A DNA stretch of 64,000 nt, from the UHGV virus genome UHGV-0049167. One strand, written 5' to 3'. The notes under the pieces are model-generated. The model had not been told where the DNA came from. It worked only from the letters and a program-made list of their open reading frames with translations, and ran no database searches. Positions 4,839-61,632 of the stretch are shown one piece after another (position 1 is the first letter of the stretch; each line of letters begins with the position of its first letter). This stretch comes from a virus. The translations under genes and the position numbers were made by a program.

Positions 4839-5105
4839 CATATAGCCAGCTGTGGCATACGAGATATTCCGCGCGATAGCGCAAGTAGAAAACGAAAACC
4901 AGGAATCAATATGAAAATCACAATTTATTGGGCAACGGAGAACGCCCGCATAATAGACAATATCCGGCAGCGGTTCGGCATCGTAGAAGGCATGACGGTA
5001 AACGGAGAGAATATCGTCACCGTTACGGATGACGGACTTGCCGAACTGAGAAAATACGAAGCCGACGGCTTCATACAGTTGCGTAACAAATGAAAATTCA
5101 AAACT

Positions 5106-23430: not shown

Positions 23431-24823
23431 CGTAGCCGTTTATATCTGTGTCTGCCTCTATATATGCTCTGAAACCGTTCGCTTCCTGCGGTTCCTGAAG
23501 ATGATACACAAGACCTCCTGTTCCAAGCGTGTATGCTCCGGCAGGCACTGTTGTTTTGCAGTAGAATCCCTTCATTGTGACCCCATTATATGTCACCGGC
23601 AGCGGTTCCGTCTCCCATTGTGAGACATTGGCTATGATATACTCGGAAGCGGGACTGTCACCGCCCGGTTTAAAAAGATACGGCTTGCCAGCCTCAATTG
23701 ATGTGACTTTGGTAAAGTGCAAGGTTTTCCCTTCTATTGAAGTATATTCCGAAACCTCCGTCCCTTCACCGAATACGCCCGCTATGTCCGTCACGTTGAA
23801 CGGCAGGCACAAAGAGTGCCAGACACCCGCACCGAACGTCCTTTTAAGCGTAACGGACACTGTCAGCCCGAGCTTTGCGCAGCTCTCTATCACGGTCTGA
23901 TTATAATGTCCGTCAGACGACTGGTCAAGAGTGACGGCAGAGAGTGGGGTGGAGGAGGCTGTCAGTCCGGCAATGTTCTCCGGAGGATATGTGAAATACC
24001 ATCGGAAACCTTTCATCGTGTTCACGCTCACGTTTGAATGGTACAGCTGTCCCGAGCTGAACAGATAGCATCCCTCGGGCAGAGCGTATATCTTGCCGTA
24101 TGAAGGATGGAACTTAAGTGAGCCGTAAGCAGGCTCAGGCGCGGCAGACACGACAGAGTCTATGTCCTCGAACACATACACACTGTCTGATGGCGGGTCA
24201 GCTGTCGGGACGACGACATAGCATTGTCCGGCATCCATGCCGTCCGTCACTTCGGTAAGCCGCAGGTTCGGGTCGTCTGTCAGACCTCCGTATGCGTAAA
24301 CTTTTGTCCCCTCACCGAACGCAGCCGCAATCTGTGCGGTGCTTAAAGAGAACGGCAGTACGAACGTGTTGTAGATGTCCTTCTTGACACCGCTTCGTTT
24401 TACCTTTACCGTCAGTCCGGTGCCTTCCACCGCGTTTACGGGTGTCTCGGACTCCTCGTCAAGAATCAGCTCGGATGTGCTGTCACGCACGCACGCCTTA
24501 TCCGGCAGGCTCTCGCATTCAAGGCGCATCCGCAGCCCTTTGTCAATTTCCAGCATATGGAGCATGACGCTTCCTTCGCGCCTCTCGTATCTCGACCAAG
24601 TATGCGTCACGGTCATTCCCATGCCCGGCAGTCCCGCATACAGTGTGATACCGCTTTCCGGCTCACCGTCTATCTGTAATATTCCCTCACCGCCATGTGT
24701 CCATTCCGCATGCCACATTCCTCCGGTTTTGGAAAAGTTCAATGTTGTCAATGTCATATACTGTCCTCCTGTTTTTTTATCATAAATATATGTTTCCGTT
24801 CGTGTCCGTGTCATCATCGTCAA
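23414..24823 (-). CDS. putative tail protein
   Basis: 469 aa, immediately downstream of the giant fibre gene. Confidence 0.4.
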   Translation of the reverse strand: MTMMTRTRTETYIYDKKTGGQYMTLTTLNFSKTGGMWHAEWTHGGEGILQIDGEPESGITLYAGLPGMGMTVTHTWSRYERREGSVMLHMLEIDKGLRMRLECESLPDKACVRDSTSELILDEESETPVNAVEGTGLTVKVKRSGVKKDIYNTFVLPFSLSTAQIAAAFGEGTKVYAYGGLTDDPNLRLTEVTDGMDAGQCYVVVPTADPPSDSVYVFEDIDSVVSAAPEPAYGSLKFHPSYGKIYALPEGCYLFSSGQLYHSNVSVNTMKGFRWYFTYPPENIAGLTASSTPLSAVTLDQSSDGHYNQTVIESCAKLGLTVSVTLKRTFGAGVWHSLCLPFNVTDIAGVFGEGTEVSEYTSIEGKTLHFTKVTSIEAGKPYLFKPGGDSPASEYIIANVSQWETEPLPVTYNGVTMKGFYCKTTVPAGAYTLGTGGLVYHLQEPQEANGFRAYIEADTDINGYGEPEQ

Positions 24824-32942: not shown

Positions 32943-34426
32943 CAGGCTACATTGTTTATAGGTGCATTTTTGTTTGTGCCATCCGTAGTCTTGTTCCGTT
33001 TTGACTCTTCAGCCAATCTCATTTCCTCATCAGGAGTGGAAACGGTATTTTTTTCAATTCCCGTCTTAGTGGAAATGATACCGGATCCTTTCAGAGTGCA
33101 AAGCATCTGGTTATAAGTATTCTCATCGAACGGCTGCCACATTTTAAACTTGCAGGATATTTTCATTCTGGCAAATTCTGTTACCGCATTCGGATTCTCA
33201 CCTTTATTTACAAGTTCTTTAGCCAGTCCTTCCTTGAAAAGTCTCGCATGTTTATCCGCAAAATTCTGCCATTCTATTACGTTTTGAGCCGCACCTTCTA
33301 TATCGAAAGAACGTGTTATTTGCATTGCCAGACCGGAGATGTCCCCGCTTGACTTAACATCCTTGGGAAGGATGAATGTTACGGATGCTCCTATCTGAAT
33401 CTTGTCAAGAATGTCTTGCATCGCATTAAGCATTCCTTCATTTGTAGGTGGAGAGAGGAACTTTGCGTCTCCCTTGCCGTCAATCGATGCGTCTTGAAGC
33501 ATAATTGAACCTGCTATTTGACGGGCGTCTTCCTTAAAACGCCCTTTGAGATATAAAATCCCCCATCCATGACGCTTTTCTATTACAGTAAAGATGTTGT
33601 AAATAATCTCAAATGTTTCTATCAGATTCTGGACGTTGTTCCATGCGACATCACCGCGCTTTGTTATAAGCGGTATCTCACTGAAGCCGTGAGCCTCTTG
33701 GCTCTCTATATGCCAACCGTCAACGTTCGTCAGACGGTACAGGTTCGTGTCGTCGTATGCGTCTATGTGCTGCACGTTGTCACCGTCGGCATAATATACA
33801 CATTCCATCACCCGGTCACCGTTGTCGTCGTTGTGTGATATGATGACATATCCGTCCTCGTATGATATTATCCGCCCCCTGATTTCACCTTTATAGTTGA
33901 AATACATCAGAAGTCCGATGTCGCCAAGTCCCATCTGCCCGTATACAGCCTTTGTCCCCAATCCGTCCTGATTGCGCTCTGTCCAATGCCATTTCAGGTC
34001 AGCAAAGTTTTTTTTCAATGTTTCGGAAGGATTGCTGTCATGCAATGTAAATACTCTGGGATTGCCGCATAATGCAAGTGTCTTTTTTTGTCTTATTCTT
34101 TCTTGAAAGGCAAGAGCGGTACGCTTGAACTTTATTTCATAGAATGCTCCGTCATTGGCTTTGACACAAATTGACGGCATATTTTCGTCAAAAAGTACCT
34201 CATGGCTGTCCGGGTCAAGTTCTTTCATGAACTTGTCCTGTGTGACAATGGTCTTCATTACGTTTGGAAGCACAGCCCGACGTAAGGCGGACACATTCTC
34301 TTCCGCCCCACAGTTGTTGTCGTACACGGAATATGTACTGCTGCCTCTTGTAAACGGCTTCTTCATCAGCATTTCTTCCGGATGAGACAACAGCCATTCT
34401 ACAATTTCCTTACGTGTTCTGTTCAT
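32942..34426 (-). CDS. hypothetical structural protein (portal candidate)
   Basis: 494 aa, ATGA-coupled to upstream gene, two genes downstream of TerL; no diagnostic motif read. Confidence 0.3.
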   Translation of the reverse strand: MNRTRKEIVEWLLSHPEEMLMKKPFTRGSSTYSVYDNNCGAEENVSALRRAVLPNVMKTIVTQDKFMKELDPDSHEVLFDENMPSICVKANDGAFYEIKFKRTALAFQERIRQKKTLALCGNPRVFTLHDSNPSETLKKNFADLKWHWTERNQDGLGTKAVYGQMGLGDIGLLMYFNYKGEIRGRIISYEDGYVIISHNDDNGDRVMECVYYADGDNVQHIDAYDDTNLYRLTNVDGWHIESQEAHGFSEIPLITKRGDVAWNNVQNLIETFEIIYNIFTVIEKRHGWGILYLKGRFKEDARQIAGSIMLQDASIDGKGDAKFLSPPTNEGMLNAMQDILDKIQIGASVTFILPKDVKSSGDISGLAMQITRSFDIEGAAQNVIEWQNFADKHARLFKEGLAKELVNKGENPNAVTEFARMKISCKFKMWQPFDENTYNQMLCTLKGSGIISTKTGIEKNTVSTPDEEMRLAEESKRNKTTDGTNKNAPINNVA

Positions 34427-34974: not shown

Positions 34975-36597
34975 TTAACTCCACAATGTGGAGTCATATA
35001 TGCTACGTCTGACGTATGTTTTACTCTCAACTTCTTCATCCCTCCCTCTCGAGAAACCTTCTTCTATCTCTGTCCCGTATTCGAGATTTACACATGGATA
35101 CATCCTTATAGCACAGGGGTCCAACAAGTCCATTGAACGTCCGTACCCAAGCCGTAAGTTCATCTGTTTCTTGTTCATAAGTCTTTTCTTTCCTGAAGGC
35201 ATGTCGATAAATCTTACGACAGCGCACTCATCCTGAAACTCATTCTCTACTGTAACTCTGAACTTCAGGTTCTGATGTGTGTATGTGGATTGCGCTACGT
35301 TATCTGCAAAAGTGATTTGCCCTCTGTTTATCATGTTTACAAGGCGGAGATAACACAGGTCTTTCATCGTCGCTGCCGTCAGGTAGTATAACCCCATTGG
35401 CTTTGTTGATGAGAGGTAAGCTATTGCGTCCGGTATGTAGTCATTGAAATACCGTCCTGCGGTGCCGTCAAATATTATGTGGCTATCCGGAGTCTCGTTT
35501 TTATCCGCGAAAATTTTTACTCTTTGCGCGTTCTCTTTAGGAGTTGTGTGGCTTACTATTAGTATGTCGGTGACATGGAAACCGTTCCATGCCAATGCCA
35601 CCATGTTGTCTGTACCATAATCAGCCAAGTCCACAGTTACCCACCTGTCTCCGTTAACGGCAGGGGCTGCCATAAAACAGTCTCTTGCCTTGTCGCTTGG
35701 TATCGGTATGTCTACGTCCTCGTCGGGGTCAGCGTTGAAGTTCCCAAGCATTGACAGTGCCATATTGCCACCTGAAGCGGCAACGCTGCCTATATAGCCA
35801 GGGTTGCGTTCCATCAAGTCTTTATTTTGTGACACCATGCCCTGATAGAACACGAACGATTTTATCAGGTGTTCATAAGAAAAATTGCCGTTTAACCTTT
35901 TTAATTTGTTTTCTATGTCTATGCGGCATTTCCGATAGACTTCCTCTTTCGTGTCACCCCAGACGACATCCTTAACCGTAGCCCCGTTTATGTAAAAATA
36001 TCTTACAACACCGTCACGTTCGGGATTTACATAGCCGTCTAATCCTACATACCAGTCAAGGAATGTTCTCGACCAATGGCTGCGCTTCGGGTTGAACGTG
36101 GCAAAGAATTTCCCGGTAAACGTCTTGCTCTGCCCACGGTTACGGGTCATCACGTATGTGAACGCCTCCCATGACATCTCGGTCAACTCGTCTATGGCTA
36201 TCGCGTCATACTCCCATCCTTTTGCACGCTCTCGCAACTTATCCATATTGGAGTCGTCGATGTACGTCAAATCGCAGAACGTGCCGATGGGGAAGCTGAT
36301 GCGCGGGCTGTCCGACTCGCGTACCTTTATATAGTCAGTACCGAACACTTGCTTGAATTTCTCCACGAAACCGCCGCCCGCCTTTTGGTTGCCAAGGCTT
36401 CGGCGGCTTATCAGGCATCGGAAATCAGGGTCGGTCATCAGTGGCTCGGCAAAGGCAAGAAGCAAGCCCAGCGACTTGCCGCCACCCGCTGCACCGCCGC
36501 CGAACACCACGTCTACATTGGTGCTGGCGAACATATGCTGGAATGGAGAATTCGGTTTCCAAGTAATGTCCTTTATGTTACTTTGACTGTCTGACAT
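34975..36597 (-). CDS. terL: terminase large subunit
   Basis: 540 aa; Walker A VVFGGGAAGGGKS, Walker B AIAIDELTE, C-terminal nuclease-like DLADYGTDNMVALAW. Confidence 0.85.
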   Translation of the reverse strand: MSDSQSNIKDITWKPNSPFQHMFASTNVDVVFGGGAAGGGKSLGLLLAFAEPLMTDPDFRCLISRRSLGNQKAGGGFVEKFKQVFGTDYIKVRESDSPRISFPIGTFCDLTYIDDSNMDKLRERAKGWEYDAIAIDELTEMSWEAFTYVMTRNRGQSKTFTGKFFATFNPKRSHWSRTFLDWYVGLDGYVNPERDGVVRYFYINGATVKDVVWGDTKEEVYRKCRIDIENKLKRLNGNFSYEHLIKSFVFYQGMVSQNKDLMERNPGYIGSVAASGGNMALSMLGNFNADPDEDVDIPIPSDKARDCFMAAPAVNGDRWVTVDLADYGTDNMVALAWNGFHVTDILIVSHTTPKENAQRVKIFADKNETPDSHIIFDGTAGRYFNDYIPDAIAYLSSTKPMGLYYLTAATMKDLCYLRLVNMINRGQITFADNVAQSTYTHQNLKFRVTVENEFQDECAVVRFIDMPSGKKRLMNKKQMNLRLGYGRSMDLLDPCAIRMYPCVNLEYGTEIEEGFSRGRDEEVESKTYVRRSIYDSTLWS

Positions 36598-42473: not shown

Positions 42474-45400
42474 ATGAGCGGAGAAATTGGAAGCGCACTT
42501 GTAATACCTGAAAGCGTACTTGACTCATTTAAAGATGCTGATGAATGGTTGGCAAAATTACAAAAGAGGATTTATGATACCGGTGATATTTCCGGAAGGT
42601 CTTTTGGTAAAATGGTAAATGGGACAACCCGTTTTTCCTCGGTGCTTGACGCTGTCATACAAAAGCTGAAGGAAGTGGAGAAATCGTCGGTAAACGCCTC
42701 TACGGCATTTAATGCCATGAGCGGGGCAAAATTCGGGAATGCGGCAACGCAGGCGGAGAAGCTGAACACAAGTATAGTGAGAGCAGCGGAAAACATAGAG
42801 AGGCTCACATCTGCTACAAGAGACAGACAAGGCGATTCCGGACTGAAGAACATCAGTGTTACATTAGATGCTCTATGGAAAAAATTAAAAGATACCCGCG
42901 TAGAGCTGGAGCTGTATTGGAAGTATATATCTACAGGTAAAAAGGACAATGTCGAATTTGGGCAAAAGGGACTTAATGAAGCATCCAAGACTGCTGATGC
43001 GCTTATGCGACAAATCACTGCTCTTGACGCTGCCTATAAACAGCTACGGAGGAGTTCAGCCAACGTAAATGACATGAAAGGGCAGACGCTCGCGGACATG
43101 CGACAGTCTGACATTTTGAGGAAAATGTCAGAATATTACCGTGATATGGAACGGTCGTCTGCTGCTGCGGCAAAAGAAGCCGAGAAGAGAGCCAGGTCGG
43201 AGGAAAAAGCGGCAAAAGCCCAATCTAAAATATACCAGCAACAGAACTATGCCCGTAATACCACATATGCGGGAGCGTTAAGCTTTGCTGAGGACGCAAA
43301 TACGATAAACCGACGTACCCAAGCCATTAAATACTTGCAGGAGGCTCGCGCAGCACTGTCTGCCACAGACAGTGAGTATGCATCCAAGCTTCGTACCCTT
43401 AATGACCGTATCAAGCAGTTGAATGCCGCAAATAACGAGGCTATAGCGGGAAGCAAAAACCTTGTGAACGAGCATCGTCGTCTGTTCGATATAACCGGGC
43501 AGCTGTCACGGTCGTTTGCGCTCCTGTTTTCAGTGTCGCAGATACGTGGATATATTGCAAATGTCGCTACGGTACGTGGGGAGTTCGAGATGTCACAACG
43601 CTCACTTGAAGCGATACTGCAAAACAAGACACAGGCTGACGAAATTTTTGCCAAGACGGTTGAACTTGCCGTTAAATCGCCTTTTCGCATAAAGGACTTG
43701 GTTCAGTATACACGGCAGCTTGCCGCCTACCGTATAGAATCAGACAAACTGTTTGATACCACCAAACGCCTTGCTGATGTCTCTGCAGGTCTTGGCGTGG
43801 ATATGCAGAGACTTATTCTTGCTTACGGACAGGTAAAGGCTGCCGCATATCTGCGCGGTTCGGAAGTACGCCAGTTCACGGAGGCAGGTGTGAATATGTA
43901 CGGGGAACTGCAACGTTATTTTCAGGAGGTCAAAGGTGAGGCATATACCACAGCGCAAATTGTTGACATGATAAGCAAGCGCATGGTGACGTTCCAAGAC
44001 GTGGAAGCTGTCTTTGAGAGAATGACAAGTGACGGAGGCATCTTCTTCAACATGCAGGAGATACAGGCTGAAACCTTGCAGGGCAAGATAAGCAATTTCC
44101 AGGACTCTCTTGATGTCATGTTAAATTCCATAGGCAAGGCAAACGAAGGTCTCTTGAAGGGTGCGATAGATGGAGCGACGGCATTGCTTGAACATTGGGA
44201 GGAACTTGTGGACGTCGGCAAGGCACTTGCAGCCATACTTCTTACAATCAAAGCACGTTCAATGTTCCTGAACTCGACGTTGGGAATCGCTTTTACACAA
44301 GCAGACACAAAAGGTCTCGCGCGTTACAAAGCCTTGTTTGTCAACGCTTTCACCAGCATGGGAAATGCTGTAAAATCTTTTGGGACAATCGCAAAAACAT
44401 CTCTTGTCGGACTCGGAATTTTTGCTGCCATCGAATTGATAACAACCGCAATAGGTAAATGGAGCGATTATAATAAAAAAGTCAAGGAGGCGCAGGAAGA
44501 TACCATAAAGACAAGAGAAGAAATAAGGAAAATATCAAGTGCTTATAATGACCTCGCGGATACGGCAACAACCGCTGACACAAAGGATTTGCAGAAAAAC
44601 ATTGACAAACGTAGGATTGCCCTGCAAAGGCTCATTGACAGCGCGGCGAAAGACGGTCTGGTATTAAAGATAAACGTGGAGGAGGTAAAAGATGAGGATT
44701 TAAACAAGACGTTTGACAGTGTAGAGAAGAAATATAAGGATTTCGTTGATGAACTGGAGATAATCAGGCGGAACTATGCCGAGAGTAACAGAAAATTGGT
44801 CTTTGATGGAATTGACGATGACCGTGAAGATTACAAAAACGCTGTTCTTGACTTTCTTTCACAATCGTCCAAAATAGAAACAGCCGTTGCTATAGTGAAT
44901 GCCAATTATGACAAGGCAACGGCAGCCACAAAGAAATATTTTGACGAGATAAGGGCAGGGCAGAAAGCCGGCGAATCGAACCTTGATTATATGCGGCGAA
45001 TGGCAGCAGCCTTGCAGCAAATGAATGTGCATTTAGGAGGAAATATTTATGCAACTCCAGGATGGCTGGACGGAGTGGAGGGGATGGTAGACATTGTGGA
45101 CACCTACAATTCTGTAGAGAAAGCCGGGGCTGCGTTGGAGAAAGAGTACGAGAAAGTGTTCGGGGACTTGCGTGATAAATACAAAAACGACCCGATTAAG
45201 ATAAAAGCCGCTATTGATAAGGTCGCAGCTGAAGAGGATTGGAGCCAATATGACCGGGAGTTGGCTTACAGACATTTTGGAATCAATGTCAAGATAAACA
45301 AGGACACTATGGAGCAGGAGGTATCGTGGGTTGATGACTACCTCTCGAATTTCTTTGCCAAGAAAAAGTACGGAGTCAGCCTTGTTGTAAAGGAAGTCAC

Positions 45401-48221
45401 GGATGGAAAGGCTCTTAGCGAATTTCTTAAGAAGGGTGACGACGCAGCGAAAGCGGCTAAGAACTGGCAAGAGCTTGAAAGACGAATATCGGCTGTTGGT
45501 AAGAATGTCAAGCAAATTAAGGTTGATGACTCTATAAGAAAATTGTTTAAGGCTGGAGATATAAGGCTAAGTGGAGAAACAATAGATGTTTCGACATTAA
45601 AAGACGTAATCGCTGAATACAAGAAAGCCGCGACTGAAACGTCTGAAAGTCTTGGTGTTGACCCTTTTTCTAAAGAAAATGCCAAGAGTGCCAAGTCTGC
45701 CGCCAAGCAGCAGCGTGACATCCTTCAGGAGCAGATTTCTCTTCTGAAAGAGATGATGGAGGTGTATGAGAAACTGACGCCTATGATTAGCGATGAAAAC
45801 GCGGCAAAGAGAGTCCTGGAAGAATACCGTGACGACCTTCAGTATGTGAAGATGGACAAGAGTATCATAGACTCGTTCGTGCCGACTAAAGAAGGTATGA
45901 TAAAAGCCTTGAATCAGCTTTTGCCAACGATAACGGACTTCAAGAAAAAGGCTGAGGTGATGAAGCTGATAAGCAAGTATGAGATAGAAATCGACTCTGA
46001 CGAATTGAAAAAGCAGCTTGATGGTGCCGAGAAGGAAGCTGACCGCATATTCTCCAATCTCGACCTATTTAGAAAGCTGAAGGAGCAAGGGCTTGACGAC
46101 GGTGCAATACAGCGTATGTTCGGCAATCTGACAATGAGTTTTGAGGATGCGAGGAAACAGCTTGACTCCCTGTATGCCGACAAGCAGGGCGGGGATTGGA
46201 CTAAGCAGAAAGAAGAGCAGTTCGATAAGCTCACGAAGAAAATCAACGATTTCAACCTTGCACAGACTCAGGACATCCTAAAGGATTACGGCAAACAGCT
46301 TGACGAACGCCTGAAACTTGACCTGTGGTATATCAATGAGCGCGCAAAAATTGAGAATAAAGAGCTGAAGTTTACGCCAGAGCAACGTGAAGAATATATA
46401 CAAGCCCTTGACAGGCAAAAAGCAGAAAAAGCAGCAAATCTTGAATGGGAGCAGTTTAAGAATACCGAAACATACATTGAGATGTTCAACAATCTCGACA
46501 ATGTGTCCTCACACATGTTGGAGCGCATGAGAGAGAAGCTTGAAGCCCTTAAAAGTTCTCTGAAAGGTCTGTCCCCTGAACAGCTTAAAGTCATTCAGGA
46601 ACAGATAAACAAAATCGACGATGAGATACTGGAACGCAATCCGTTGAAAGATTTTGGTAAAAATCTCAATCAATTTTCCAATGCTTCAAAAAGTATAAAA
46701 GAACTTGAAAAAACATATGATGTTGAGAAGCAAAAACTTGAAGAACTTGAAGACAAACTCGATGAAGCGGCTGAACACGTCAACAAGTTAAACGAGGCAT
46801 ATGCAAAACTCTCCGACAGTGACAAGCGAGGTGATGCTGGGACAGAACTCAATAATGAGATAAATGACGCGAAAAGGCAATACGACGAAATAAATAAAAA
46901 GGTTAATGAGCAGGAGAAAAACGTTGCCAATGTCACGAAAGAACTCAATAAGTGGCAAAGAATGCTCAAAACTCTTGGAGGGCAGTTTGAGTATATCGGT
47001 TCATGGTTCGGTGCCATTTCATCAGGAGTAACCGAAATATCCGCCAACCTTGAAAACGTTTTCGGCACAATGTCTGACGGCATCCGTGACACAATCGAGA
47101 GCATTTCCGATATTGCAGGAGGATTGGGACAGACTGCCAGCGGCATAGGGCAACTTGTCGCGCCAGGTGGATTGCTCAACCCCTCGGCATGGGTAAGCAC
47201 CATTGGCGGTATTACTAAGACCATAGGCTCATTATTCAATATCGGAGACAAGAAAAAAGAACGTCAGATAAAAAGACTGACAGAGCAGGTCGAGAGCCTC
47301 CAACATGCCTATGAAAACCTTGAACAAGAACAGTCTGATGCATGGAGCATTACAGAACTTGATAAATACACGGAGAAGCTGAAGGATAATCTCGAAATGC
47401 AAAATGCCAACCTGCGTGCTATGATTGCTGCGGAGGAGGACAAGAAGAAAAAGGATAAGGACCGCATAAAGGAGTGGCGGGAACAGATAGAGGAAAATGA
47501 GAAAGCAATAAAAAAGGCACAAGACACATTGCAGGAGGAAATTGGAGGATTCGGCTCAAAGGCAAATTATAAGTCTGCGGCACAAGCTTTTGCGGACGCA
47601 TGGGTTGACGCATTCAATGAAGGTTCTGACACACTCGCTGCACTTGAAAGCCAATTGGATGAGGTGTTTGATAATTTGTTAAAAAAACAAGTCAGCTATC
47701 GTGTGGCAGACAATATTATCAACAGTTTGTTGAAGCCTCTTGACGATGCGCTTGTGAATTATGACGGTTCATCGTCTTCATTGCAAAGTCTGAGACAATC
47801 ATTGGAGAAAATACGCGAGGAATCTCCAGAAACGCTTAAAGCGTTTGACGAAGCCATGAAATCAATCGCAGATATCCTCGGGTTTAAATTTGGTGCCGGT
47901 GCGGATTCTGAATCAAGCCTTTCTGCCCTGCAGCAGGGCATACAAGGAGTAACGGAACAAACGGCTGAAGCCCTTGAAGCTTTGCTTAACTCTATTCGCT
48001 TCTTTGTCGCGAAACAGACTGAGGACATAGCTGCCATCCGAGCCTTGTTGTCGGGCAGTCAGTCCATCGACATGTCCTCAACCGACAATCCGATGGTTAC
48101 CATACTGCGTGAACAGGCAGGGTATTTAAGAAGTATGTTATCTATAATGACTGATATGTGGAACCAAGCCTTTGCTCCGGGACATCCCAAAGGCGGCAGA
48201 GGATTAAAGGTTTTCATGTAG
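42474..48221 (+). CDS. tail tape measure protein
   Basis: 1915 aa, long coiled-coil-rich Ala/Lys/Glu/Gln sequence with central hydrophobic stretch, downstream of tail tube and chaperone genes. Confidence 0.75.
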   Translation: MSGEIGSALVIPESVLDSFKDADEWLAKLQKRIYDTGDISGRSFGKMVNGTTRFSSVLDAVIQKLKEVEKSSVNASTAFNAMSGAKFGNAATQAEKLNTSIVRAAENIERLTSATRDRQGDSGLKNISVTLDALWKKLKDTRVELELYWKYISTGKKDNVEFGQKGLNEASKTADALMRQITALDAAYKQLRRSSANVNDMKGQTLADMRQSDILRKMSEYYRDMERSSAAAAKEAEKRARSEEKAAKAQSKIYQQQNYARNTTYAGALSFAEDANTINRRTQAIKYLQEARAALSATDSEYASKLRTLNDRIKQLNAANNEAIAGSKNLVNEHRRLFDITGQLSRSFALLFSVSQIRGYIANVATVRGEFEMSQRSLEAILQNKTQADEIFAKTVELAVKSPFRIKDLVQYTRQLAAYRIESDKLFDTTKRLADVSAGLGVDMQRLILAYGQVKAAAYLRGSEVRQFTEAGVNMYGELQRYFQEVKGEAYTTAQIVDMISKRMVTFQDVEAVFERMTSDGGIFFNMQEIQAETLQGKISNFQDSLDVMLNSIGKANEGLLKGAIDGATALLEHWEELVDVGKALAAILLTIKARSMFLNSTLGIAFTQADTKGLARYKALFVNAFTSMGNAVKSFGTIAKTSLVGLGIFAAIELITTAIGKWSDYNKKVKEAQEDTIKTREEIRKISSAYNDLADTATTADTKDLQKNIDKRRIALQRLIDSAAKDGLVLKINVEEVKDEDLNKTFDSVEKKYKDFVDELEIIRRNYAESNRKLVFDGIDDDREDYKNAVLDFLSQSSKIETAVAIVNANYDKATAATKKYFDEIRAGQKAGESNLDYMRRMAAALQQMNVHLGGNIYATPGWLDGVEGMVDIVDTYNSVEKAGAALEKEYEKVFGDLRDKYKNDPIKIKAAIDKVAAEEDWSQYDRELAYRHFGINVKINKDTMEQEVSWVDDYLSNFFAKKKYGVSLVVKEVTDGKALSEFLKKGDDAAKAAKNWQELERRISAVGKNVKQIKVDDSIRKLFKAGDIRLSGETIDVSTLKDVIAEYKKAATETSESLGVDPFSKENAKSAKSAAKQQRDILQEQISLLKEMMEVYEKLTPMISDENAAKRVLEEYRDDLQYVKMDKSIIDSFVPTKEGMIKALNQLLPTITDFKKKAEVMKLISKYEIEIDSDELKKQLDGAEKEADRIFSNLDLFRKLKEQGLDDGAIQRMFGNLTMSFEDARKQLDSLYADKQGGDWTKQKEEQFDKLTKKINDFNLAQTQDILKDYGKQLDERLKLDLWYINERAKIENKELKFTPEQREEYIQALDRQKAEKAANLEWEQFKNTETYIEMFNNLDNVSSHMLERMREKLEALKSSLKGLSPEQLKVIQEQINKIDDEILERNPLKDFGKNLNQFSNASKSIKELEKTYDVEKQKLEELEDKLDEAAEHVNKLNEAYAKLSDSDKRGDAGTELNNEINDAKRQYDEINKKVNEQEKNVANVTKELNKWQRMLKTLGGQFEYIGSWFGAISSGVTEISANLENVFGTMSDGIRDTIESISDIAGGLGQTASGIGQLVAPGGLLNPSAWVSTIGGITKTIGSLFNIGDKKKERQIKRLTEQVESLQHAYENLEQEQSDAWSITELDKYTEKLKDNLEMQNANLRAMIAAEEDKKKKDKDRIKEWREQIEENEKAIKKAQDTLQEEIGGFGSKANYKSAAQAFADAWVDAFNEGSDTLAALESQLDEVFDNLLKKQVSYRVADNIINSLLKPLDDALVNYDGSSSSLQSLRQSLEKIREESPETLKAFDEAMKSIADILGFKFGAGADSESSLSALQQGIQGVTEQTAEALEALLNSIRFFVAKQTEDIAAIRALLSGSQSIDMSSTDNPMVTILREQAGYLRSMLSIMTDMWNQAFAPGHPKGGRGLKVFM

Positions 48222-57695: not shown

Positions 57696-58238
57696 TTATT
57701 CATCTCCTGAGAGGTAGTCCTCTATCGTCGTGTCGCTTACGCTAAACGTGCAGCCGTACACGTTCTTGAACTTAAATGGAACCTCCATGTATATTATGCC
57801 CTTCAGGGTGTCTGTGACAGGCTCACTCTTGTCCGACAGATACATCAACACCTTGCGCTGTCTTGCAGTGTCCCTGTATATGACGAGACCGCCGCTTACA
57901 TACTCAACAAAATTGTCATATACCTCACCGGCGGCTTTTATAGCTGCCTGCCTCGATTCTTCATTCGTGACATCACGTCCCAATGGGTCAAAAAAGTATA
58001 GGGTCAGCGTTATGTCTGTCTGCTCATATACCGACAACGGTGACACGTAAACTCTCGCCTTGTCACTCTCTGCATATGTCTCCGTATATATGCCTTTCTG
58101 AACGCCATAGGCGCGCAATCCTGTACACGACTTATACCTAAGCCCCTTGAAATGCTCCTCCAAGTCTACTTCATTGCCAAGTGACCAACCCGATTCTGAC
58201 TGAACAGCCTTCTTTATGTAAAAATGGTATTGAGGCAT
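57696..58238 (-). CDS. hypothetical protein (first gene of minus-strand early module)
   Basis: 180-aa ORF starting next to the ORF-free region. Confidence 0.4.
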   Translation of the reverse strand: MPQYHFYIKKAVQSESGWSLGNEVDLEEHFKGLRYKSCTGLRAYGVQKGIYTETYAESDKARVYVSPLSVYEQTDITLTLYFFDPLGRDVTNEESRQAAIKAAGEVYDNFVEYVSGGLVIYRDTARQRKVLMYLSDKSEPVTDTLKGIIYMEVPFKFKNVYGCTFSVSDTTIEDYLSGDE

Positions 58239-58340
58239 GTATACATTGTTTAATTAGACTACCCAAATATATACATTTACAATGCTTATACATTATTTTT
58301 TGCTGAAAATCAAACGTTTTTGTCATACAAGAACGCCCTT

Positions 58341-58361
58341 GTGTTGCATTTGTGTTGCATT
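58341..58361. repeat. tandem direct repeat GTGTTGCATT x2
   Basis: GTGTTGCATT-T-GTGTTGCATT read directly. Confidence 0.5.
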
Positions 58362-58460
58362 CTCGCTATTCCCTCCATCATAATTGATGGACTTGTGAAT
58401 TAAAAAAAAATAAAAAAAATTTGAGAATGGGTGGCATATGTTCGAACCTTGCCCTATAGC

Positions 58461-58468
58461 GGGGGGGG
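58461..58468. repeat. homopolymeric G8 tract in non-coding DNA
   Basis: AGCGGGGGGGGATACC read directly. Confidence 0.6.
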
Positions 58469-58644
58469 ATACCCTTTATATAAGAGTACGGATACCCACA
58501 AACGTGTAATATTTCGTTATGTCGCTTTTGTGCGCTGCTTTCACGTATGCAAATACACGTGTTTATTTATATGCCTTTAATCGTGCATTATTTGCGTGCA
58601 TAACGTCCGTATGTATGCAAATACGTAAATGTACCATATCTTTA

Positions 58645-58685
58645 TTAACGCGTATATATAAATATATTTATATAGTACGCGTTAA
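58645..58685. promoter_or_regulatory. 41-bp near-perfect palindrome (TTAACGCGTA arms around an AT-rich self-complementary core)
   Basis: TTAACGCGTATATATAAATATATTTATATAGTACGCGTTAA; outer 10-bp arms are exact reverse complements. Confidence 0.5.
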
Positions 58686-59062
58686 CTAAAGATATAAAAT
58701 CTTTTCGCGAATGCTCCGTACATTGCCTTTAAACAGTCCATAATAACACACACATTGCAACAACTGCAAAGCCGTGCGTTAACAGCCCGCCAATACATGG
58801 AGCGATAAGGGGCACACGCGCGTAACTTAAAGGCGTCAGAAGGCACGCAAACCGTGTTACTGCAAAGGTTTTAAGGTGTTTGTACTCTTATTTTGCATTA
58901 ACTGTAATACCTTGATTGTCAATGTGTTAAAGTGTTGTTTATTACATGAAAATAAACGGGATATAATTTTGTCATTTCAATATTTATTACTACATTTGCA
59001 ATGTAAGAGGTACGGAGAGAAACCCAAAGGCTTACAAGCGTTCTTTTTGGATATTGGGCAAT

Positions 59063-59097
59063 AAAAAAGCCCCTGCAAAGTCGCAATTTGCAGGGGC
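59063..59097 (-). terminator. intrinsic terminator (minus-strand orientation)
   Basis: 10-11 bp perfect stem CCCCTGCAAA / TTTGCAGGGG with 7-nt loop; A6 on the plus side gives a T-run after the stem on the minus strand. Confidence 0.55.
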
Positions 59098-59609
59098 GGC
59101 GCAAACGCAAAAGCGCTGCGAGTTCATCTACTGAACGGGCACAAAGTTAGTGATTTACTTTTGATTGTACAAGAAAAAGCGAAAGTAAATTCAATTTCCA
59201 AAGAAAAAAGAATGAGACGAGCAAAGGACCCGAAAAGGTCGAGCCATATAAACAACGTGCGAAAGTAATGCACTGGTACGGGCTTTACACCTACACAAAC
59301 AGCCCCCGAAAGCCGTTGAGGTGAACACGGCAAAGGAAGTCGCAATACTTCCGGGCGTTCATTGAAAAGGTATGATTTTGCGAATAACCCGCCAATGTGG
59401 GTCGCTAATAGCGAGGCGGTCTATATTGGTGTATGATACAGGGTGCCGAATGGGAAATGTAGTGCGGTAGTGTAGCGGCAATCGGTTTGCGCTGCACGAG
59501 TTGCTAATAGGCCGGTAGGACGGAAACAAACAAATTACCGTGTGAGAGAGAGAAACGCGCCGGGGTTGTGTATCCGGGGCGGAACTGTTTGGACGGCTTG
59601 CACGGAACG

Positions 59610-59643
59610 AAAAAACCGCCTGCAATAATGCAGACGGAGGCGG
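59610..59643 (-). terminator. intrinsic terminator candidate (minus-strand orientation)
   Basis: stem CCGCCT / AGGCGG enclosing an internal CTGCA-ATAA-TGCAG hairpin; A6 upstream on plus gives T6 after the stem on minus. Confidence 0.45.
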
Positions 59644-59768
59644 ACGGCCTTAACCGTCCAAATTCAAAAGCGTACTTATATGCGAATTTATTTTGTGTTT
59701 AAGTTGTGGCGTATTCGGTTACTCTTTATTGAGTTCCGAATAACTCTATTTAGATAATAGAGCCACGG

Positions 59769-59818
59769 CGCGGCGGTAATGTTAACGGCATTTGCCGCCG
59801 CGTTTCGCTTTTGTTCTG
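59769..59818 (+). terminator. intrinsic terminator candidate (plus-strand orientation)
   Basis: 8-bp GC stem CGCGGCGG / CCGCCGCG followed by TTTCGCTTTTGTTCTG. Confidence 0.45.
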
Positions 59819-60555
59819 CAAATATAGAGTTTATTTCTTTCGGTTGTTCCTTCTGTTAGGAATAATTAAGTAAAAACTCAGTAAAGCCGTAAGACGAAAG
59901 AAGCGATGTAAGGTTATGAAGAGACTGAGCTGTTTGAGGTAAGCCGTAAATGTATTACTGAGAAATTGAATATTTGTTCAAAATTAATCGATATTATAAA
60001 TCTTATCAGCTGCATCTATATCTTGACCATCATATTATGCAATATTTGTATAAGGCAAGCCGTGCTTGGCAAACCGTGAGTAAGCTCGACTGAATACGTA
60101 TTTAAAATCGAGGCAGCGACAGACATACCCGTCAATGTCTGGACTGATATGCAGTCGGCATGCGGTATTCAGACTGTATGGTACAGCATAATACTTAATG
60201 CATTATTTGACAATATACGCAAGACAGTTGCTATGCTTTGATTTTCAATGGTCAAGAAATTCCACTGTCAATGACTTTCAACGTTGTACGGTTCTTATTT
60301 CCCAAAAGATTTAACCCGAATCGGTCATCAGACTTCATCCTTATTTCGCACTGCTGTCAGCCAGATTATATTCAGCTTTTATCGGAAATATAGCGGGCTG
60401 CACCGGAAAAAAGCTGGAGGCAAGATTACGGCAGCAGTGCGGAATTGTAGTTATTTTGAATACTCCGACCTACGTTGGTAACTTGCGGAAATGATAGAGC
60501 GTTTCAAAAAGAGAGTGGAGAAGAAAATAAACGACAACTTTTAAAACATGCAACC

Positions 60556-60798
60556 ATGACACAGAAAAAAGCATTAAACCAATTAGAGGAATATTGCAGG
60601 GTGAACAATATGCACCTTATAAATTCAACCTTTATAAAAGGTGCGTACGCTCTTGTAATTCACGACGCACCTGGCGAATGGGTGCAGGGTGTGGCAAACA
60701 TGCCTTGCCGCCGTTTGAGCGGATATTTAACCCCGAAAGAGCTGCTTTTGTGGCTTGACGGCTATCATGCAGGACTTCAGGCGAACAAAAACAAATAA
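60556..60798 (+). CDS. hypothetical protein
   Basis: ORF table 60475; internal ATG at 60556 (MTQKKALNQLEEY...) preferred. Confidence 0.3.
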   Translation: MTQKKALNQLEEYCRVNNMHLINSTFIKGAYALVIHDAPGEWVQGVANMPCRRLSGYLTPKELLLWLDGYHAGLQANKNK

Positions 60799-60970: not shown

Positions 60971-61288
60971 ATGCTAATCGAATTTTACAAAGACTACCTG
61001 CGCGAACTATTTGTGCAAGGTCGGACGAACGACAAGAAACACCGCTATCAACCCGAAATAATAAAAGGTTACAAAAAGTGCGTGATGTTCTTAAAACGAG
61101 CAAACAACGTGGAGCAACTTTACCCTATCCACTCCTTGAACTGCGAAGTTTTACAGGGCGACAAAAAGGGTGTTTCATCCGTGCGAATAAACAGGCAATA
61201 CCGACTTGAATTTACAGTAAGGGATATTTTAGGCGAGCAAATTGTCACAGTGTGCCGTCTATTGGAAATAAGCAACCACTACAAATAA
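60971..61288 (+). CDS. higB: HigB-like toxin (RelE/ParE superfamily)
   Basis: 105 aa; LQGDKKGVSSVRINRQYRLEFTV...VTVCRLLEISNHYK matches the HigB pattern; immediately upstream of a HigA-like HTH gene. Confidence 0.7.
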   Translation: MLIEFYKDYLRELFVQGRTNDKKHRYQPEIIKGYKKCVMFLKRANNVEQLYPIHSLNCEVLQGDKKGVSSVRINRQYRLEFTVRDILGEQIVTVCRLLEISNHYK

Positions 61289-61296
61289 ATACAAAT

Positions 61297-61632
61297 ATGG
61301 AAACAGCAAAGAGAATTTACAGACCTGACGAGTTGCAGCCGTCCGAGCCTATACATCCGGGCGAAATGCTGAAAGACGAATTGCAAGCCCGTGGAATGTC
61401 GCAAAAGAAATTCGCCGCCATAATAGGAATGCCTTACACGGCTTTTAACGAGATTATAAACGGCAAGCGGCCTATAACTACCGACACGGCGTTAAGGATA
61501 GAGGCTGCAACAGGGATAGCCGCAAACATTTGGCGCGGTCTTCAATCTGACTACGACATAATGGCGGCACGACGAAACAACAAACTCACCGCCATACTTG
61601 ACAACATACGTAAGGCGGTGGCGGTGCTTTAA
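61297..61632 (+). CDS. higA: HigA-like antitoxin (XRE-type HTH)
   Basis: ATG at 61297; HPGEMLKDELQARGMSQKKFAAIIGMPYTAFNEIINGKRPITTDTALRIEAATG is a HigA-type HTH. Confidence 0.7.
   Translation: METAKRIYRPDELQPSEPIHPGEMLKDELQARGMSQKKFAAIIGMPYTAFNEIINGKRPITTDTALRIEAATGIAANIWRGLQSDYDIMAARRNNKLTAILDNIRKAVAVL

What the first reader, a model, noticed from the sequence alone, without database searches (positions are those of the whole stretch)
58239..60283. About 2 kb ORF-free region with several strong hairpin/terminator structures: candidate structured non-coding RNA locus or origin/packaging region
Between the minus-strand early module (ends 58238) and the next credible plus-strand gene there is no ORF with coding character, only short overlapping ORFs on both strands. 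The region contains a perfect 10-11 bp GC-rich stem with a flanking T-run at 59063..59097 (minus orientation), a second stem plus T6 at 59610..59643 (minus), an 8-bp GC stem plus U-rich tail at 59769..59818 (plus), and further GC-rich stems such as GGACGG-CCTTAA-CCGTCC at about 59641..59658. The segment 59100..59600 is purine-rich on the plus strand and not AT-rich, unlike a typical promoter desert. Terminators bracketing a roughly 500-700 nt non-coding stretch are what a large structured RNA gene looks like; large ornate RNAs of unknown function are known to occur in phage genomes. An origin or pac/cos region is the alternative.
Basis: partly seen in the sequence, partly recalled or inferred. 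Interest (0 to 1): 0.62.

Follow-up and report, generated by a model that had tools for sequence, protein, structure and literature searches.

The report
Phage control region with antisense RNA
The 2.3-kb gene-free gap is most likely the central control region of a temperate Bacteroidales-type gut phage: two promoters point away from each other, a conserved ~75-nt antisense small RNA gene faces the rightward promoter, and the long leader carries two previously unclassified folded RNA modules. It is not one large RNA gene.

Summary

Comparison with about 10 related phage lineages shows three things:
- **Conserved promoter pair.** Both match the Bacteroidetes type (TTTG / TAnnTTTG). One drives the leftward early operon. 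The other (P_L, -7 box 58991-58998) fires rightward.
- **Small RNA gene on the minus strand (~59137..59063).** It has its own conserved -7 box, three covarying hairpins and the 59069-59097 terminator. It converges on P_L and is complementary to the 5' end of the P_L transcript.
- **Two optional, mosaic RNA modules in the P_L leader.** Module B is 59215-59338 and module A is 59446-59607. Both show compensatory base-pair changes, and their G·U pairs fit only the plus strand.

So structured RNA is present. It lies on the strand opposite to the "bracketing" terminators, and it sits in an mRNA leader that varies in length (about 280-1270 nt) among relatives. No Rfam family matches. The AT-rich left part (58272-58960) carries a conserved palindrome and a polyG-N41-A-tract element of unknown role; an origin there is not excluded. 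A packaging site is unlikely, because the terminase gene is 22 kb away. All transcription is inferred, not shown.

The parts
58264..58271 (-). -7 box (TATATTTG) of the early-operon promoter, 26 nt upstream of the ATG at 58238
   Evidence: Exact TAnnTTTG match. A -7 box sits 22-50 nt upstream of the early gene in L001, L002, L011, L014, L016, L026 and L084. Consensus taken from PMC7366714.
58402..58468 (.). Composite element A9-T-A8 / 41-nt spacer / G8. Function unknown.
   Evidence: Present in every lineage, including the distant IMG/VR clade. The spacer is 37-41 nt in all but one case (45 nt). The homopolymer length varies from 6 to 13, even among near-identical relatives.
58545..58624 (.). 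Operator-like repeats: GTATGCAAATAC twice, plus an inverted TATTTGCGTGCATA
   Evidence: Families D18, I20 and I23. The block ACGGACGTT..GCACGCAAA is conserved in L010, L011 and L014.
58635..58697 (.). ~62-bp AT-rich palindrome
   Evidence: Read. It produced the spurious symmetric miRNA hits on both strands. The palindromic form is kept while the arm sequences are replaced in L010, L011 and L016.
58970..58998 (+). Rightward promoter P_L: -33 TTTG at 58970-73 and -7 TACATTTG at 58991-98. Inferred start site about 59005.
   Evidence: Motif match. CAAAGGTA and CAAATAA are invariant in 9 aligned lineages. In L010, L014, L016 and L026 the only canonical -7 boxes in this direction upstream of the first gene are P_L and, in L014 and L016, one more about 100 nt further upstream.
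59063..59137 (-). Candidate small RNA gene (~75 nt): hairpin 1, hairpin 2 with a CUUU(U/A)G loop, and an intrinsic terminator (stem 59069-59097, T6 59063-68). It is antisense to about +58..+132 of the P_L transcript.
   Evidence: Covariance model R1 hit at 59142..59058, 83 bits. RNAalifold gives three hairpins, with 13 of 19 pairs showing compensatory changes. 88.8% of cells are paired against 39-49% when partners are slid. Fold z-score -4.65. The same unit is found in 43 distinct sequences of the distant clade.
59142..59149 (-). -7 box (TAACTTTG) of the small-RNA promoter
   Evidence: Match. CTA[AT][CA]TTTG is conserved in all lineages.
59153..59190 (.). Inverted repeat ATTTACTTT...AAAGTAAAT spanning the -33 region of the small-RNA promoter. 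Either an operator or an RNA hairpin.
   Evidence: Family I25. The outer arms AATTTA/TAAATT are conserved. The inner arms covary (CTTT/AAAG, TCCG/CGGA, CC/GG, TTCG/CGAA) across window, L010, L016 and L026. Imperfections occur in both strand senses (L016, L113), so the strand cannot be decided.
59215..59338 (+). Leader RNA module B: three hairpins, including a 5-bp helix that closes a conserved 16-nt loop UUUACACCUA...
   Evidence: nhmmer finds it in the window clade, L010, L014, L026/27, L111 and L113. 91.4% of cells are paired against 30-44% slid, and 8 of 14 pairs show double changes. U·G pairs favour the plus strand.
59446..59607 (+). Leader RNA module A: two domains (59446-59519 and 59538-59605)
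   Evidence: Model R2 hit at 59446-59607, 159.5 bits. Present in the window clade, L014 and L016-19. 49 pairs, 94.6% paired against 27-43% slid, 18 pairs with double changes, helices 1-4 100% paired. The minus-strand fold is much weaker. Substitutions are spread evenly over codon positions and indels shift the frame.
59610..59637 (-). Second minus-strand intrinsic terminator (9-bp stem plus T6). Window clade only.
   Evidence: The stem contains a G·U pair on the minus strand that would be C·A on the plus strand (sequence).
59606..59826 (-). Candidate second antisense RNA (~205 nt): -7 box TATATTTG at 59826..59819, a dense hairpin cluster, and the terminator at 59610-59637. Low confidence.
   Evidence: -7 box found and kept in L001 and L002. 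Fold z-score -7.1. Known only from the 97-100% identical clade, so there is no covariation test.
59769..59818 (+). Plus-strand terminator-like hairpin (8 GC pairs, 18-nt loop, U-rich tail) at the end of the conserved leader
   Evidence: The arms are identical in L001 while the loop is wholly replaced. Absent from the leaders of L010, L011, L014, L016, L026 and L084.
59870..59877 (.). Junction between the conserved backbone and the variable cargo cassette
   Evidence: BLAST identity with L001-L003 stops at 59877. Cargo differs beyond it.
59878..60555 (+). Window- and L004-specific non-coding stretch ahead of the 80-aa gene (60556-60798) and HigB/HigA (60971-61632)
   Evidence: No called gene. 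No canonical plus-strand -7 box between 59164 and 60650. No match in the phage collection. HigB/HigA identified.

Best explanation
The gap is the main regulatory intergenic region of a temperate siphovirus that probably infects Bacteroidales.

**Shown by sequence conservation**
- Two divergent promoters of the Bacteroidetes sigma-ABfr type lie about 720 bp apart. P_early fires leftward into the early operon. P_L fires rightward.
- The P_L transcript carries a long untranslated leader and continues into a variable cargo operon. In relatives that operon holds anti-restriction and polyvalent-protein genes, toxin-antitoxin genes and a serine recombinase.
- A small RNA gene with its own -7 box and intrinsic terminator sits about 130 bp downstream of P_L and faces it.
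- In some lineages the leader carries one or both of two independently folding RNA modules, A and B.

**Inferred**
- The ~75-nt RNA is fully complementary to the 5' part of the P_L transcript. Its middle hairpin keeps a YUNR-like CUUU(A/U)G loop while its stems change, which is the usual design of antisense recognition loops.
- The small RNA and its promoter reduce P_L output in two ways. Convergent polymerases interfere with each other. The antisense RNA pairs with the leader, leading to duplex cleavage or early termination.
- The inverted repeat over the small-RNA promoter is a likely protein operator that switches this brake on or off.
- Modules A and B act in cis on leader fate (stability, processing or read-through). 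In the window clade, read-through of the terminator-like hairpin at 59769-59818 would be needed to reach the downstream genes.

No transcription has been observed.
For: **Gene-free gap upstream of the early gene.** It is seen in the close clade and in L010-L019 and L026-L027.

**Promoter motifs.** TAnnTTTG occurs 7 times in the 5 kb of two-strand sequence searched, against about 2 expected from the window-wide rate. Three of these sites are conserved in position and strand in lineages whose neighbouring protein is only 42-81% identical. The consensus is from dRNA-seq and earlier work cited in PMC7366714.

**Small RNA.**
- Three hairpins, with 13 of 19 pairs changed compensatorily.
- 88.8% of cells paired against 39-49% in slid controls, and 0 of 500 shuffles reach the observed value.
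- G·U cells outnumber A·C cells 10 to 4 on the minus strand. The distant clade has 13 U·G at a single terminator pair.
- The same layout is seen in the IMG/VR clade, read in full in L084 and recovered in 43 distinct small-RNA sequences. In L084 the leader is only about 280 nt and runs straight into an ORF.

**Modules A and B.** Covariation statistics come, strand preference, and non-coding substitution pattern.

**P_L as the operon promoter.** In four lineages the only canonical rightward -7 boxes upstream of the first ORF are P_L and, in L014 and L016, one more about 100 nt further upstream.

**Temperate lifestyle.** The relative L001 lies in a 241-kb scaffold beside two tRNA genes and an integrase.
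Against: - No expression data exist. Promoters and start sites are inferred from motifs only.
- The host is not identified. No relative was found in the GTDB representative genomes. The Bacteroidales assignment rests on promoter type and a 29%-identity capsid match to a Bacteroides phage.
- Covariation rests on few independent lineages: about 3 for module A, 4-5 for module B and about 6 for the small RNA. The shuffle controls ignore phylogeny.
- The small RNA never overlaps a ribosome-binding site or start codon. It lies about 100 nt to 1.4 kb from the first ORF, so the best-known antisense mechanism, translational block, does not apply.
- Modules A and B are absent from L011-13 and from the distant clade, so they are dispensable for the core switch.
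- The inverted repeat could be an RNA hairpin rather than an operator.
- The terminator-like hairpin in the P_L direction exists only in the window clade.
Confidence: 0.6

Rival explanations
1. One reading: one large (500-700 nt) structured RNA gene on the minus strand, lying between the terminators at 59610-59637 and 59063-59097.
For: Two strong minus-strand terminators lie 545 nt apart. The minus-strand fold of 59055-59665 has a z-score of -4.2.
Against: - A conserved promoter and a complete small RNA occupy the last 75 nt.
- The conserved helices carry G·U pairs that work only on the plus strand. The minus-strand consensus fold is much weaker.
- The interior consists of two optional modules that are absent from several relatives.
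- No conserved minus-strand promoter lies upstream of 59600, apart from a clade-specific one at 59819-59826 whose transcript would stop at 59610.
Confidence: 0.06
2. A stand-alone ~810-nt plus-strand non-coding RNA. It would start at P_L (~59005), end at the hairpin at 59769-59818, and work as an RNA in its own right rather than as an mRNA leader.
For: - In the window clade a GC-rich hairpin with a U-rich tail ends the conserved block.
- The whole RNA folds with a z-score of -6.1.
- The strand is purine-rich.
- Modules A and B are structured on this strand.
Against: - Other lineages have no terminator between P_L and the first ORF.
- Leader length ranges from about 280 to 1270 nt and its content is mosaic.
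- The window has no other canonical plus-strand promoter for the 80-aa gene (60556-60798) within the stretch scanned, 59164-60650. That argues for read-through from P_L.
Confidence: 0.2
3. The AT-rich part (58272-58960) is the phage replication origin, or another DNA-level site such as a recombinase or packaging site. The hairpins would then be DNA structures.
For: - GC content is 35-39%, against 45-48% in the flanks.
- A ~62-bp palindrome keeps its palindromic form while its sequence changes.
- The polyG-N41-A-tract element is conserved in all lineages.
- Short repeated motifs are present.
- This explanation is compatible with the main one for the right-hand part.
Against: - There is no array of three or more iterons; only two-copy repeats are found.
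- No recognisable initiator gene lies next to it.
- GC skew follows gene orientation and switches four times in the window, so it gives no information.
- Terminase and portal are 22 kb away.
- attP is expected beside the integrase and tRNA genes in L001.
- It does not explain the strand-specific covariation at 59215-59607.
Confidence: 0.2
4. A type I toxin-antitoxin-like pair: the antisense small RNA would repress a small hydrophobic peptide encoded on the P_L transcript.
For: The first ORF of the rightward operon is a small hydrophobic protein in L014 (64 aa), L016 (an uncalled 22 aa) and L084 (88 aa).
Against: - The window leader has no such ORF.
- In L001, L010, L011 and L026 the first ORF is soluble.
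- The small RNA lies 100 to more than 600 nt away from these ORFs and does not overlap their start.
Confidence: 0.06
5. A decayed former coding region or neutral spacer with chance hairpins.
For: No function has been shown. The count of terminator-like sites is not above the shuffled expectation.
Against: - Blocks are conserved across lineages whose flanking protein is only 42-70% identical. One example is 87.6% DNA identity over 59032-59205 with L011.
- Compensatory changes are present.
- Substitutions are flat across codon positions and indels shift the frame.
Confidence: 0.05

Closest known systems
Phage P22 sar RNA / ant and phage lambda OOP RNA / cII (cis-antisense small RNAs in temperate-phage control regions; from general knowledge)
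   Same: A short RNA of about 70-77 nt with its own promoter and intrinsic terminator. It is transcribed convergently to a regulatory operon and is fully complementary to that transcript.
   Different: There is no sequence or Rfam relationship. sar covers the ant ribosome-binding site and OOP covers the 3' end of cII. Here the overlap is with an untranslated 5' leader, far from any start codon. The promoters are of the Bacteroidetes TTTG/TAnnTTTG type.
Face-to-face promoter switches of coliphages 186 (pR/pL) and P2 (Pe/Pc): transcriptional interference (from general knowledge)
   Same: Two convergent promoters about 60-130 bp apart lie at the heart of a temperate phage's control region.
   Different: In 186 and P2 both promoters drive protein operons for lytic or lysogenic development. 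Here one of the two makes only a terminated small RNA.
P4 CI RNA and P1/P7 c4 RNA (RNA-based immunity acting on long untranslated leaders; from general knowledge)
   Same: A long untranslated leader downstream of a constitutive-looking promoter, with a small structured RNA from the same region controlling downstream expression.
   Different: CI and c4 are processed from the sense leader and act on partly complementary sites. Here the small RNA is a separate antisense gene. No trans-complementarity to the early operon was found.
ColE1 RNA I / RNA II (from general knowledge)
   Same: An antisense RNA with three hairpins opposes the 5' end of a long, purine-rich, non-coding transcript.
   Different: RNA II has a fixed length and ends at the origin. 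Here the leader length is variable (about 280-1270 nt), runs into genes, and has no identified origin at its end.
Cis-acting leader RNAs such as the HK022 put elements or riboswitch-type leaders (from general knowledge)
   Same: Independently folding, covarying RNA domains in a phage operon leader, upstream of a terminator in the window clade.
   Different: There is no sequence or structure match to any Rfam family. The modules are optional and are not tied to one downstream gene family. Antitermination activity is pure conjecture.
Bacteroides cis-antisense and intergenic sRNAs mapped by dRNA-seq (PMC7366714)
   Same: Same promoter type plus an intrinsic terminator. That study used a start site plus a terminator as its high-confidence criterion for intergenic sRNAs.
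   Different: Those RNAs are chromosomal. None of the Bacteroides sRNA families in Rfam matches this region.

Membership tests
Any Rfam 15 family (including large ornate RNAs such as GOLLD, ROOL, HEARO, OLE, raiA) | Match to the family covariance model at or above its gathering score | tested here: not met
   No hits in the whole window. With an E-value limit of 10 on 58000-60700, only far sub-threshold chance hits appear, such as miRNA models on the AT palindrome and Hrs13 at 26.7 bits against a threshold of 52. Eight relatives gave only tRNAs.
Cis-encoded antisense small RNA | Own promoter immediately upstream | tested here: met
   -7 box TAACTTTG at 59149..59142, conserved in all lineages. 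This is motif evidence only.
Cis-encoded antisense small RNA | Intrinsic terminator at the 3' end | tested here: met
   11-bp stem plus T6. The stem covaries in the close clade and carries strand-specific U·G pairs in the distant clade.
Cis-encoded antisense small RNA | Conserved secondary structure | tested here: met
   88.8% of cells paired against 39-49% slid. 13 of 19 pairs show double changes.
Cis-encoded antisense small RNA | An overlapping transcript from the opposite strand | tested here: inconclusive
   A canonical convergent promoter (TTTG, about 17-20 nt spacer, TAnnTTTG) is conserved in 9 aligned lineages. Transcription itself cannot be tested here.
Cis-encoded antisense small RNA | Expression and a regulatory effect on the target | not testable with these tools
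   Needs RNA-seq, Northern blots or reporter assays.
P22 sar / lambda OOP type specifically | Overlap with the target's ribosome-binding site or coding region | tested here: not met
   The first ORF starts about 100 nt (L084) to about 1.4 kb (window) from the small RNA.
Structured cis-regulatory leader RNA (riboswitch-like or antiterminator-like), for modules A and B | Conserved structure with covariation on the sense strand of a 5' leader | tested here: met
   Module A: 94.6% paired, 18 double-change pairs. Module B: 91.4% paired, 8 double-change pairs. The plus strand is favoured.
Structured cis-regulatory leader RNA (riboswitch-like or antiterminator-like), for modules A and B | Consistent association with one downstream gene family | tested here: not met
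   Downstream cargo differs between lineages, and the modules occur in all combinations: A+B, A only, B only, neither.
Structured cis-regulatory leader RNA (riboswitch-like or antiterminator-like), for modules A and B | Adjacent expression platform (a terminator or RBS-sequestering helix) | tested here: inconclusive
   A plus-strand terminator-like hairpin lies 160 nt downstream of module A, but only in the window clade. None is found in the other lineages.
Replication origin | AT-rich unwinding region | tested here: met
   58200-58950 has 35-39% GC, with A9TA8 tracts.
Replication origin | Array of iterons or initiator-binding repeats | tested here: not met
   Only two-copy short repeats and an 11-nt repeat in two copies.
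Replication origin | Adjacent initiator or replication gene | tested here: inconclusive
   The four early-operon proteins nearest the gap match no PHROG family. Helicase-like AAA_25 genes occur further along the early operon in the relatives L021-L023 and L026.
pac/cos packaging site | Location next to the terminase genes | tested here: not met
   Terminase large subunit at 34975-36597 and portal at 32942-34426.
pac/cos packaging site | Physical genome ends map here | not testable with these tools
   Needs read-terminus analysis of virion DNA.
Type I toxin-antitoxin | A small hydrophobic toxin ORF overlapped by the antisense RNA | tested here: not met
   No such ORF in the window leader. Hydrophobic first ORFs in L014, L016 and L084 lie well away from the small RNA.
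ColE1-type primer control | A long non-coding transcript of fixed length that ends at the origin | tested here: not met
   Leader length is about 280-1270 nt and it runs into ORFs.

The most novel reading that the evidence does not exclude
Modules A (~160 nt) and B (~120 nt) are two new classes of autonomous, swappable structured RNA elements. Together with a conserved antisense small RNA, they gate expression of the anti-defence and toxin-antitoxin cargo operon of a widespread clade of gut Bacteroidales temperate phages. One possible mode is making RNA polymerase resistant to the leader terminator. This would be an RNA-based establishment or immunity switch in a phylum where phage regulation is essentially uncharted.
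Probability: 0.25. Interest if true: 0.7.

Novelty: new member of a known kind. Interest (0 to 1): 0.5.

Why it matters
Almost nothing is known about how temperate phages of gut Bacteroidales regulate themselves. This locus gives a concrete and testable layout:
- canonical sigma-ABfr promoters;
- a conserved convergent small-RNA gene found across phage lineages whose neighbouring early protein is only 42-48% identical to the window's;
- two unclassified covarying RNA motifs sitting ahead of a hot spot where anti-defence and toxin-antitoxin cargo is exchanged.

If confirmed, it would add a phage-encoded antisense regulator and two RNA motifs to the small catalogue of Bacteroidetes RNAs. It would also mark the promoter and leader that control cargo expression from these prophages. 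It is not a new principle, because antisense RNAs at convergent promoters are classic in enterobacterial phages.

Tried and rejected
- **Alternative genetic codes.** Read-through of TAG, TGA or TAA gives no convincing ORF.
- **tRNA or tmRNA.** None found.
- **Rfam.** Nothing at gathering threshold or at E <= 10.
- **DNA similarity to 50,697 deposited phages.** None.
- **Exact-pattern and single-protein scans of IMG/VR.** No close relatives. A profile scan was needed to find any.
- **GTDB genomes.** No module B pattern and no relative of the early protein, so the host stays unidentified. One alignment was too divergent to back-translate.
- **JGI metagenome scan for module A.** Only two real hits, one of them a contig already held. 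Three were chance matches.
- **Covariance-model searches for remote copies.** Neither the small RNA nor module A was found beyond the lineages already known.
- **Hidden protein in module A.** Rejected: substitutions are 26/25/26 and 23/22/30 over the three codon positions, indels are 1, 2, 4 and 32 nt, and L001 breaks the only open frame.
- **Trans-pairing of the small RNA with the early-gene start region.** Not significant (z -2.5 to +1.1).
- **Universal leader terminator or attenuator.** Present only in the window clade.
- **GC skew as an origin marker.** Uninformative, because it tracks gene orientation.
- **Plus-strand TACTTTTG at 59156 as a promoter.** Not conserved.
- **CATT-N3-AATG palindrome shared by P_early and P_L.** Not conserved outside the window clade.
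- **Literature searches.** No description of this RNA or locus was found.


Full report
**What is in the sequence.** Between the start codon of the leftward gene 57696-58238 and the next called gene (60556-60798, plus strand) there is no credible ORF. The longest stop-free stretches are 75-98 codons and overlap one another. Gene callers left most of the equivalent stretch empty in the close relatives, and all of it in the near-identical L004.

The plus strand of 59100-59700 is purine-rich with 44-51% GC, while 58200-58950 is AT-rich. The window has no tRNA and no Rfam match at gathering threshold. A permissive scan of 58000-60700 returned only chance hits far below threshold. Stop-codon reassignment does not create a gene.

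**Context.** The window is a siphovirus-like genome:
- large terminase at 34975-36597;
- SPP1-type portal at 32942-34426;
- tape-measure protein at 42474-48221;
- a capsid protein 29% identical to that of Bacteroides phage C3_41T2LP.

The same early gene occurs on 12 human-gut contigs. One of them (L001) is a 241-kb scaffold in which the element lies beside two tRNA genes and a tyrosine integrase, so the phage is temperate.

Positions 57696-59877 are 97-100% identical in these contigs. Beyond about 59877 each carries different cargo:

| Contig(s) | Cargo beyond the junction |
|---|---|
| Window, L004 | HigB/HigA |
| L002, L003, L010 | LPD29 protein |
| L014 | ArdA with AAA and DUF genes |
| Several (e.g. 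L001-L003, L010, L016, L026) | A resolvase-type serine recombinase further along the same operon |

**More distant relatives.** Homologues of the early protein (81% down to 42% identity) were traced to their contigs. A profile scan of IMG/VR gave 80 further loci at 44-48% identity.

Most of these lineages keep a gene-poor gap of about 1-2 kb upstream of the early gene. In L021-L025 the gene order is rearranged. Parts of the gap are more conserved than the neighbouring protein. For example, 59032-59205 is 87.6% identical to L011, whose protein is only 70% identical.

**The conserved core.** Three matches to the Bacteroidetes sigma-ABfr promoter consensus (-33 TTTG, -7 TAnnTTTG; PMC7366714) keep their position and strand in all lineages:
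- **P_early.** Its -7 box is at 58271..58264, 26 nt before the early ATG.
- **P_L.** It lies on the plus strand, with TTTG at 58970-73 and TACATTTG at 58991-98.
- **P_s.** It lies on the minus strand, with TAACTTTG at 59149..59142.

TAnnTTTG occurs about once per 2.3 kb of single strand in this window. Seven sites were found where about two are expected.

P_s is followed by about 75 nt that end in the 59069-59097 stem plus T6. In eight sequences representing about six lineages this unit folds into three hairpins:
- 13 of 19 pairs show compensatory changes;
- 88.8% of cells are paired, against 39-49% when partners are slid by 1-3 columns;
- 0 of 500 shuffles reach the observed value.

A covariance model finds the unit once per phage, always at this place. 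The IMG/VR clade has the same unit with different stems (43 distinct sequences). Its terminator carries U·G pairs that fit only this strand. Across both clades the middle hairpin keeps a CUUU(A/U)G loop while its stem sequence changes. From general knowledge, this resembles the YUNR recognition loops of antisense RNAs.

P_L and P_s face each other about 130 bp apart, so the small RNA is complementary to roughly +58..+132 of the P_L transcript.

In L084 the P_L-side leader is only about 280 nt and runs straight into an ORF. In L010, L014, L016 and L026 the only canonical rightward -7 boxes upstream of the first ORF, 556-854 nt away, are P_L and, in L014 and L016, one more about 100 nt further upstream. 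The plus-strand transcript is therefore best read as the leader of the cargo operon.

**The inverted repeat at the small-RNA promoter.** The repeat at 59153-59190 flanks the -33 region of P_s. Its outer arms are conserved and its inner arms covary. Imperfections occur in both strand senses (L016 against L113). This fits a DNA operator at least as well as an RNA hairpin.

It resolves into two separable modules:

| Module | Window position | Lineages that carry it |
|---|---|---|
| B | 59215-59338 | Window clade, L010, L014, L026/27, L111, L113 |
| A | 59446-59607 | Window clade, L014, L016-19 |
| Neither | - | L011-13 and the IMG/VR clade |

*Module A.*
- On the plus strand it gives a two-domain consensus fold of -46.4 kcal/mol with 49 pairs.
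- 94.6% of cells are paired, against 27-43% slid.
- 18 pairs show double changes, and four helices are 100% paired.
- 37 cells are G·U pairs, which would be A·C mismatches on the other strand.
- The minus-strand consensus is only -26.1 kcal/mol, with many broken pairs.

*Module B.*
- It has three hairpins.
- 91.4% of cells are paired against 30-44% slid, and 8 of 14 pairs show double changes.
- One 5-bp helix changes from GGGCU/AGCCC to GCGGU/ACCGC to GCCGC/GCGGC around an invariant loop UUUACACCUA.
- A second hairpin is complete only on the plus strand.

*Coding check.* Neither module is coding. Substitutions fall equally on the three codon positions, indels shift the frame, and L001 interrupts the only open frame. 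Covariance searches found no further copies.

*Caveat.* Module A rests on about three independent lineages and module B on four or five.

**The right end of the conserved block (59606-59877).** This is a cluster of near-perfect hairpins known only from the 97-100% identical clade. It contains:
- a minus-strand terminator (59610-59637);
- a minus-strand -7 box (59826..59819), which together could define a ~205-nt antisense RNA with a fold z-score of -7.1;
- a plus-strand terminator-like hairpin (59769-59818). Its loop is entirely replaced in L001 while the arms are unchanged.

No other lineage has a terminator in the P_L direction. The window has no canonical plus-strand promoter between 59164 and 60650. 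The 80-aa gene, and perhaps HigB/HigA beyond it, would therefore need read-through from P_L or a non-canonical promoter.

**The left, AT-rich part (58272-58960).** It holds:
- operator-like repeats;
- a ~62-bp palindrome whose form, but not its sequence, is conserved;
- a composite A9TA8 / 41 nt / G8 element found in every lineage. Its spacer is nearly constant and its homopolymer length is variable.

It may contain operators or an origin, and nothing here decides between them. GC skew is uninformative. A packaging site is unlikely given the distance to the terminase gene. attP is expected next to the integrase.

**Interpretation.** The best-supported reading is a phage control region in which a convergent small-RNA gene brakes a rightward cargo operon through promoter interference and antisense pairing. 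Optional structured leader modules would act in cis.

- Shown by sequence analysis: conservation, motif positions, covariation and strand preference.
- Inferred: transcription, direction of regulation and any antitermination role.

The small RNA shows no significant complementarity to the early-gene start region. A P1-c4-like trans immunity role is therefore not supported.

**Comparison with known systems.** The layout works like P22 sar, lambda OOP and the face-to-face promoters of 186 and P2. It has echoes of the P4 and P1 leader-based RNA immunity systems and of ColE1 RNA I/II. It is not a member of any described RNA family, and it differs in overlapping only an untranslated leader. Literature searches found no description of it.

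**Verdict.** The feature is real and moderately interesting.

Noticed in passing
window 58402-58468: A9-T-A8, a 41-nt spacer, then G8. The same polyC/N37-41/T8AT8 arrangement occurs in every related phage lineage, including the distant IMG/VR clade. The homopolymer length varies from 6 to 13, even among near-identical contigs (8, 10, 11).
   Followed up: partly
window 58635-58697: A ~62-bp AT-rich palindrome. Relatives (L010, L011, L016) keep a long palindrome at the same place, but with different arm sequences.
   Followed up: partly
window 59777-59794 vs L001 8448-8464: In a pair of contigs that are 97% identical overall, the 17-18-nt loop of the 59769-59802 hairpin is completely replaced while both 8-bp arms stay identical.
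   Followed up: no
window 59870-59877 and beyond; L001-L004, L010-L019: A sharp recombination junction. Beyond it, near-identical phages carry different cargo: HigB/HigA (window 60971-61632), LPD29 proteins, ArdA with AAA genes, and small unknown ORFs.
   Followed up: partly
window 58584/60199/60038 and 58847/60069/60055: The short motifs TGCATTATTTG and GCAAACCGTG recur in both the AT-rich spacer and the window-specific non-coding stretch at 59878-60555. They may be shared binding sites.
   Followed up: no
L014 3712-3906; L016 ~3880-3948 (uncalled); L084 2696-2962: In some relatives the first ORF of the rightward operon is a small hydrophobic protein, for example MKANYILAAFWVVVLFVLVGVL in L016. 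The window has no counterpart.
   Followed up: partly
L001 1949-2117 and 2324-3541: Two tRNA genes lie directly beside the tyrosine integrase of the prophage in a 241-kb scaffold. This is probably the integration site.
   Followed up: no
L021-L025: In these relatives the early-gene homologue directly follows the tape-measure gene. In L021-L024 a weak match to the promoter core lies about 4.7-5.3 kb downstream on the other strand, so the genome order is rearranged.
   Followed up: no
window 16248-17303 (-), 12709-13764 (+), 10066-11022 (+), 24780-32942 (-): Other genes seen in the window: an HTH_3 plus Peptidase_M78 (ImmA/IrrE-like) protein, a weak sub-threshold HipA_C-like match, a PAPS-reductase-domain protein, and a 2720-aa ORF.
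   Followed up: no
L014 ~4878-4885, L016 ~4669-4676, L017 4635-4712: A second -7 box in the P_L direction, with weak similarity to the P_L core in L017, lies about 100 nt upstream of P_L in some lineages.
   Followed up: no
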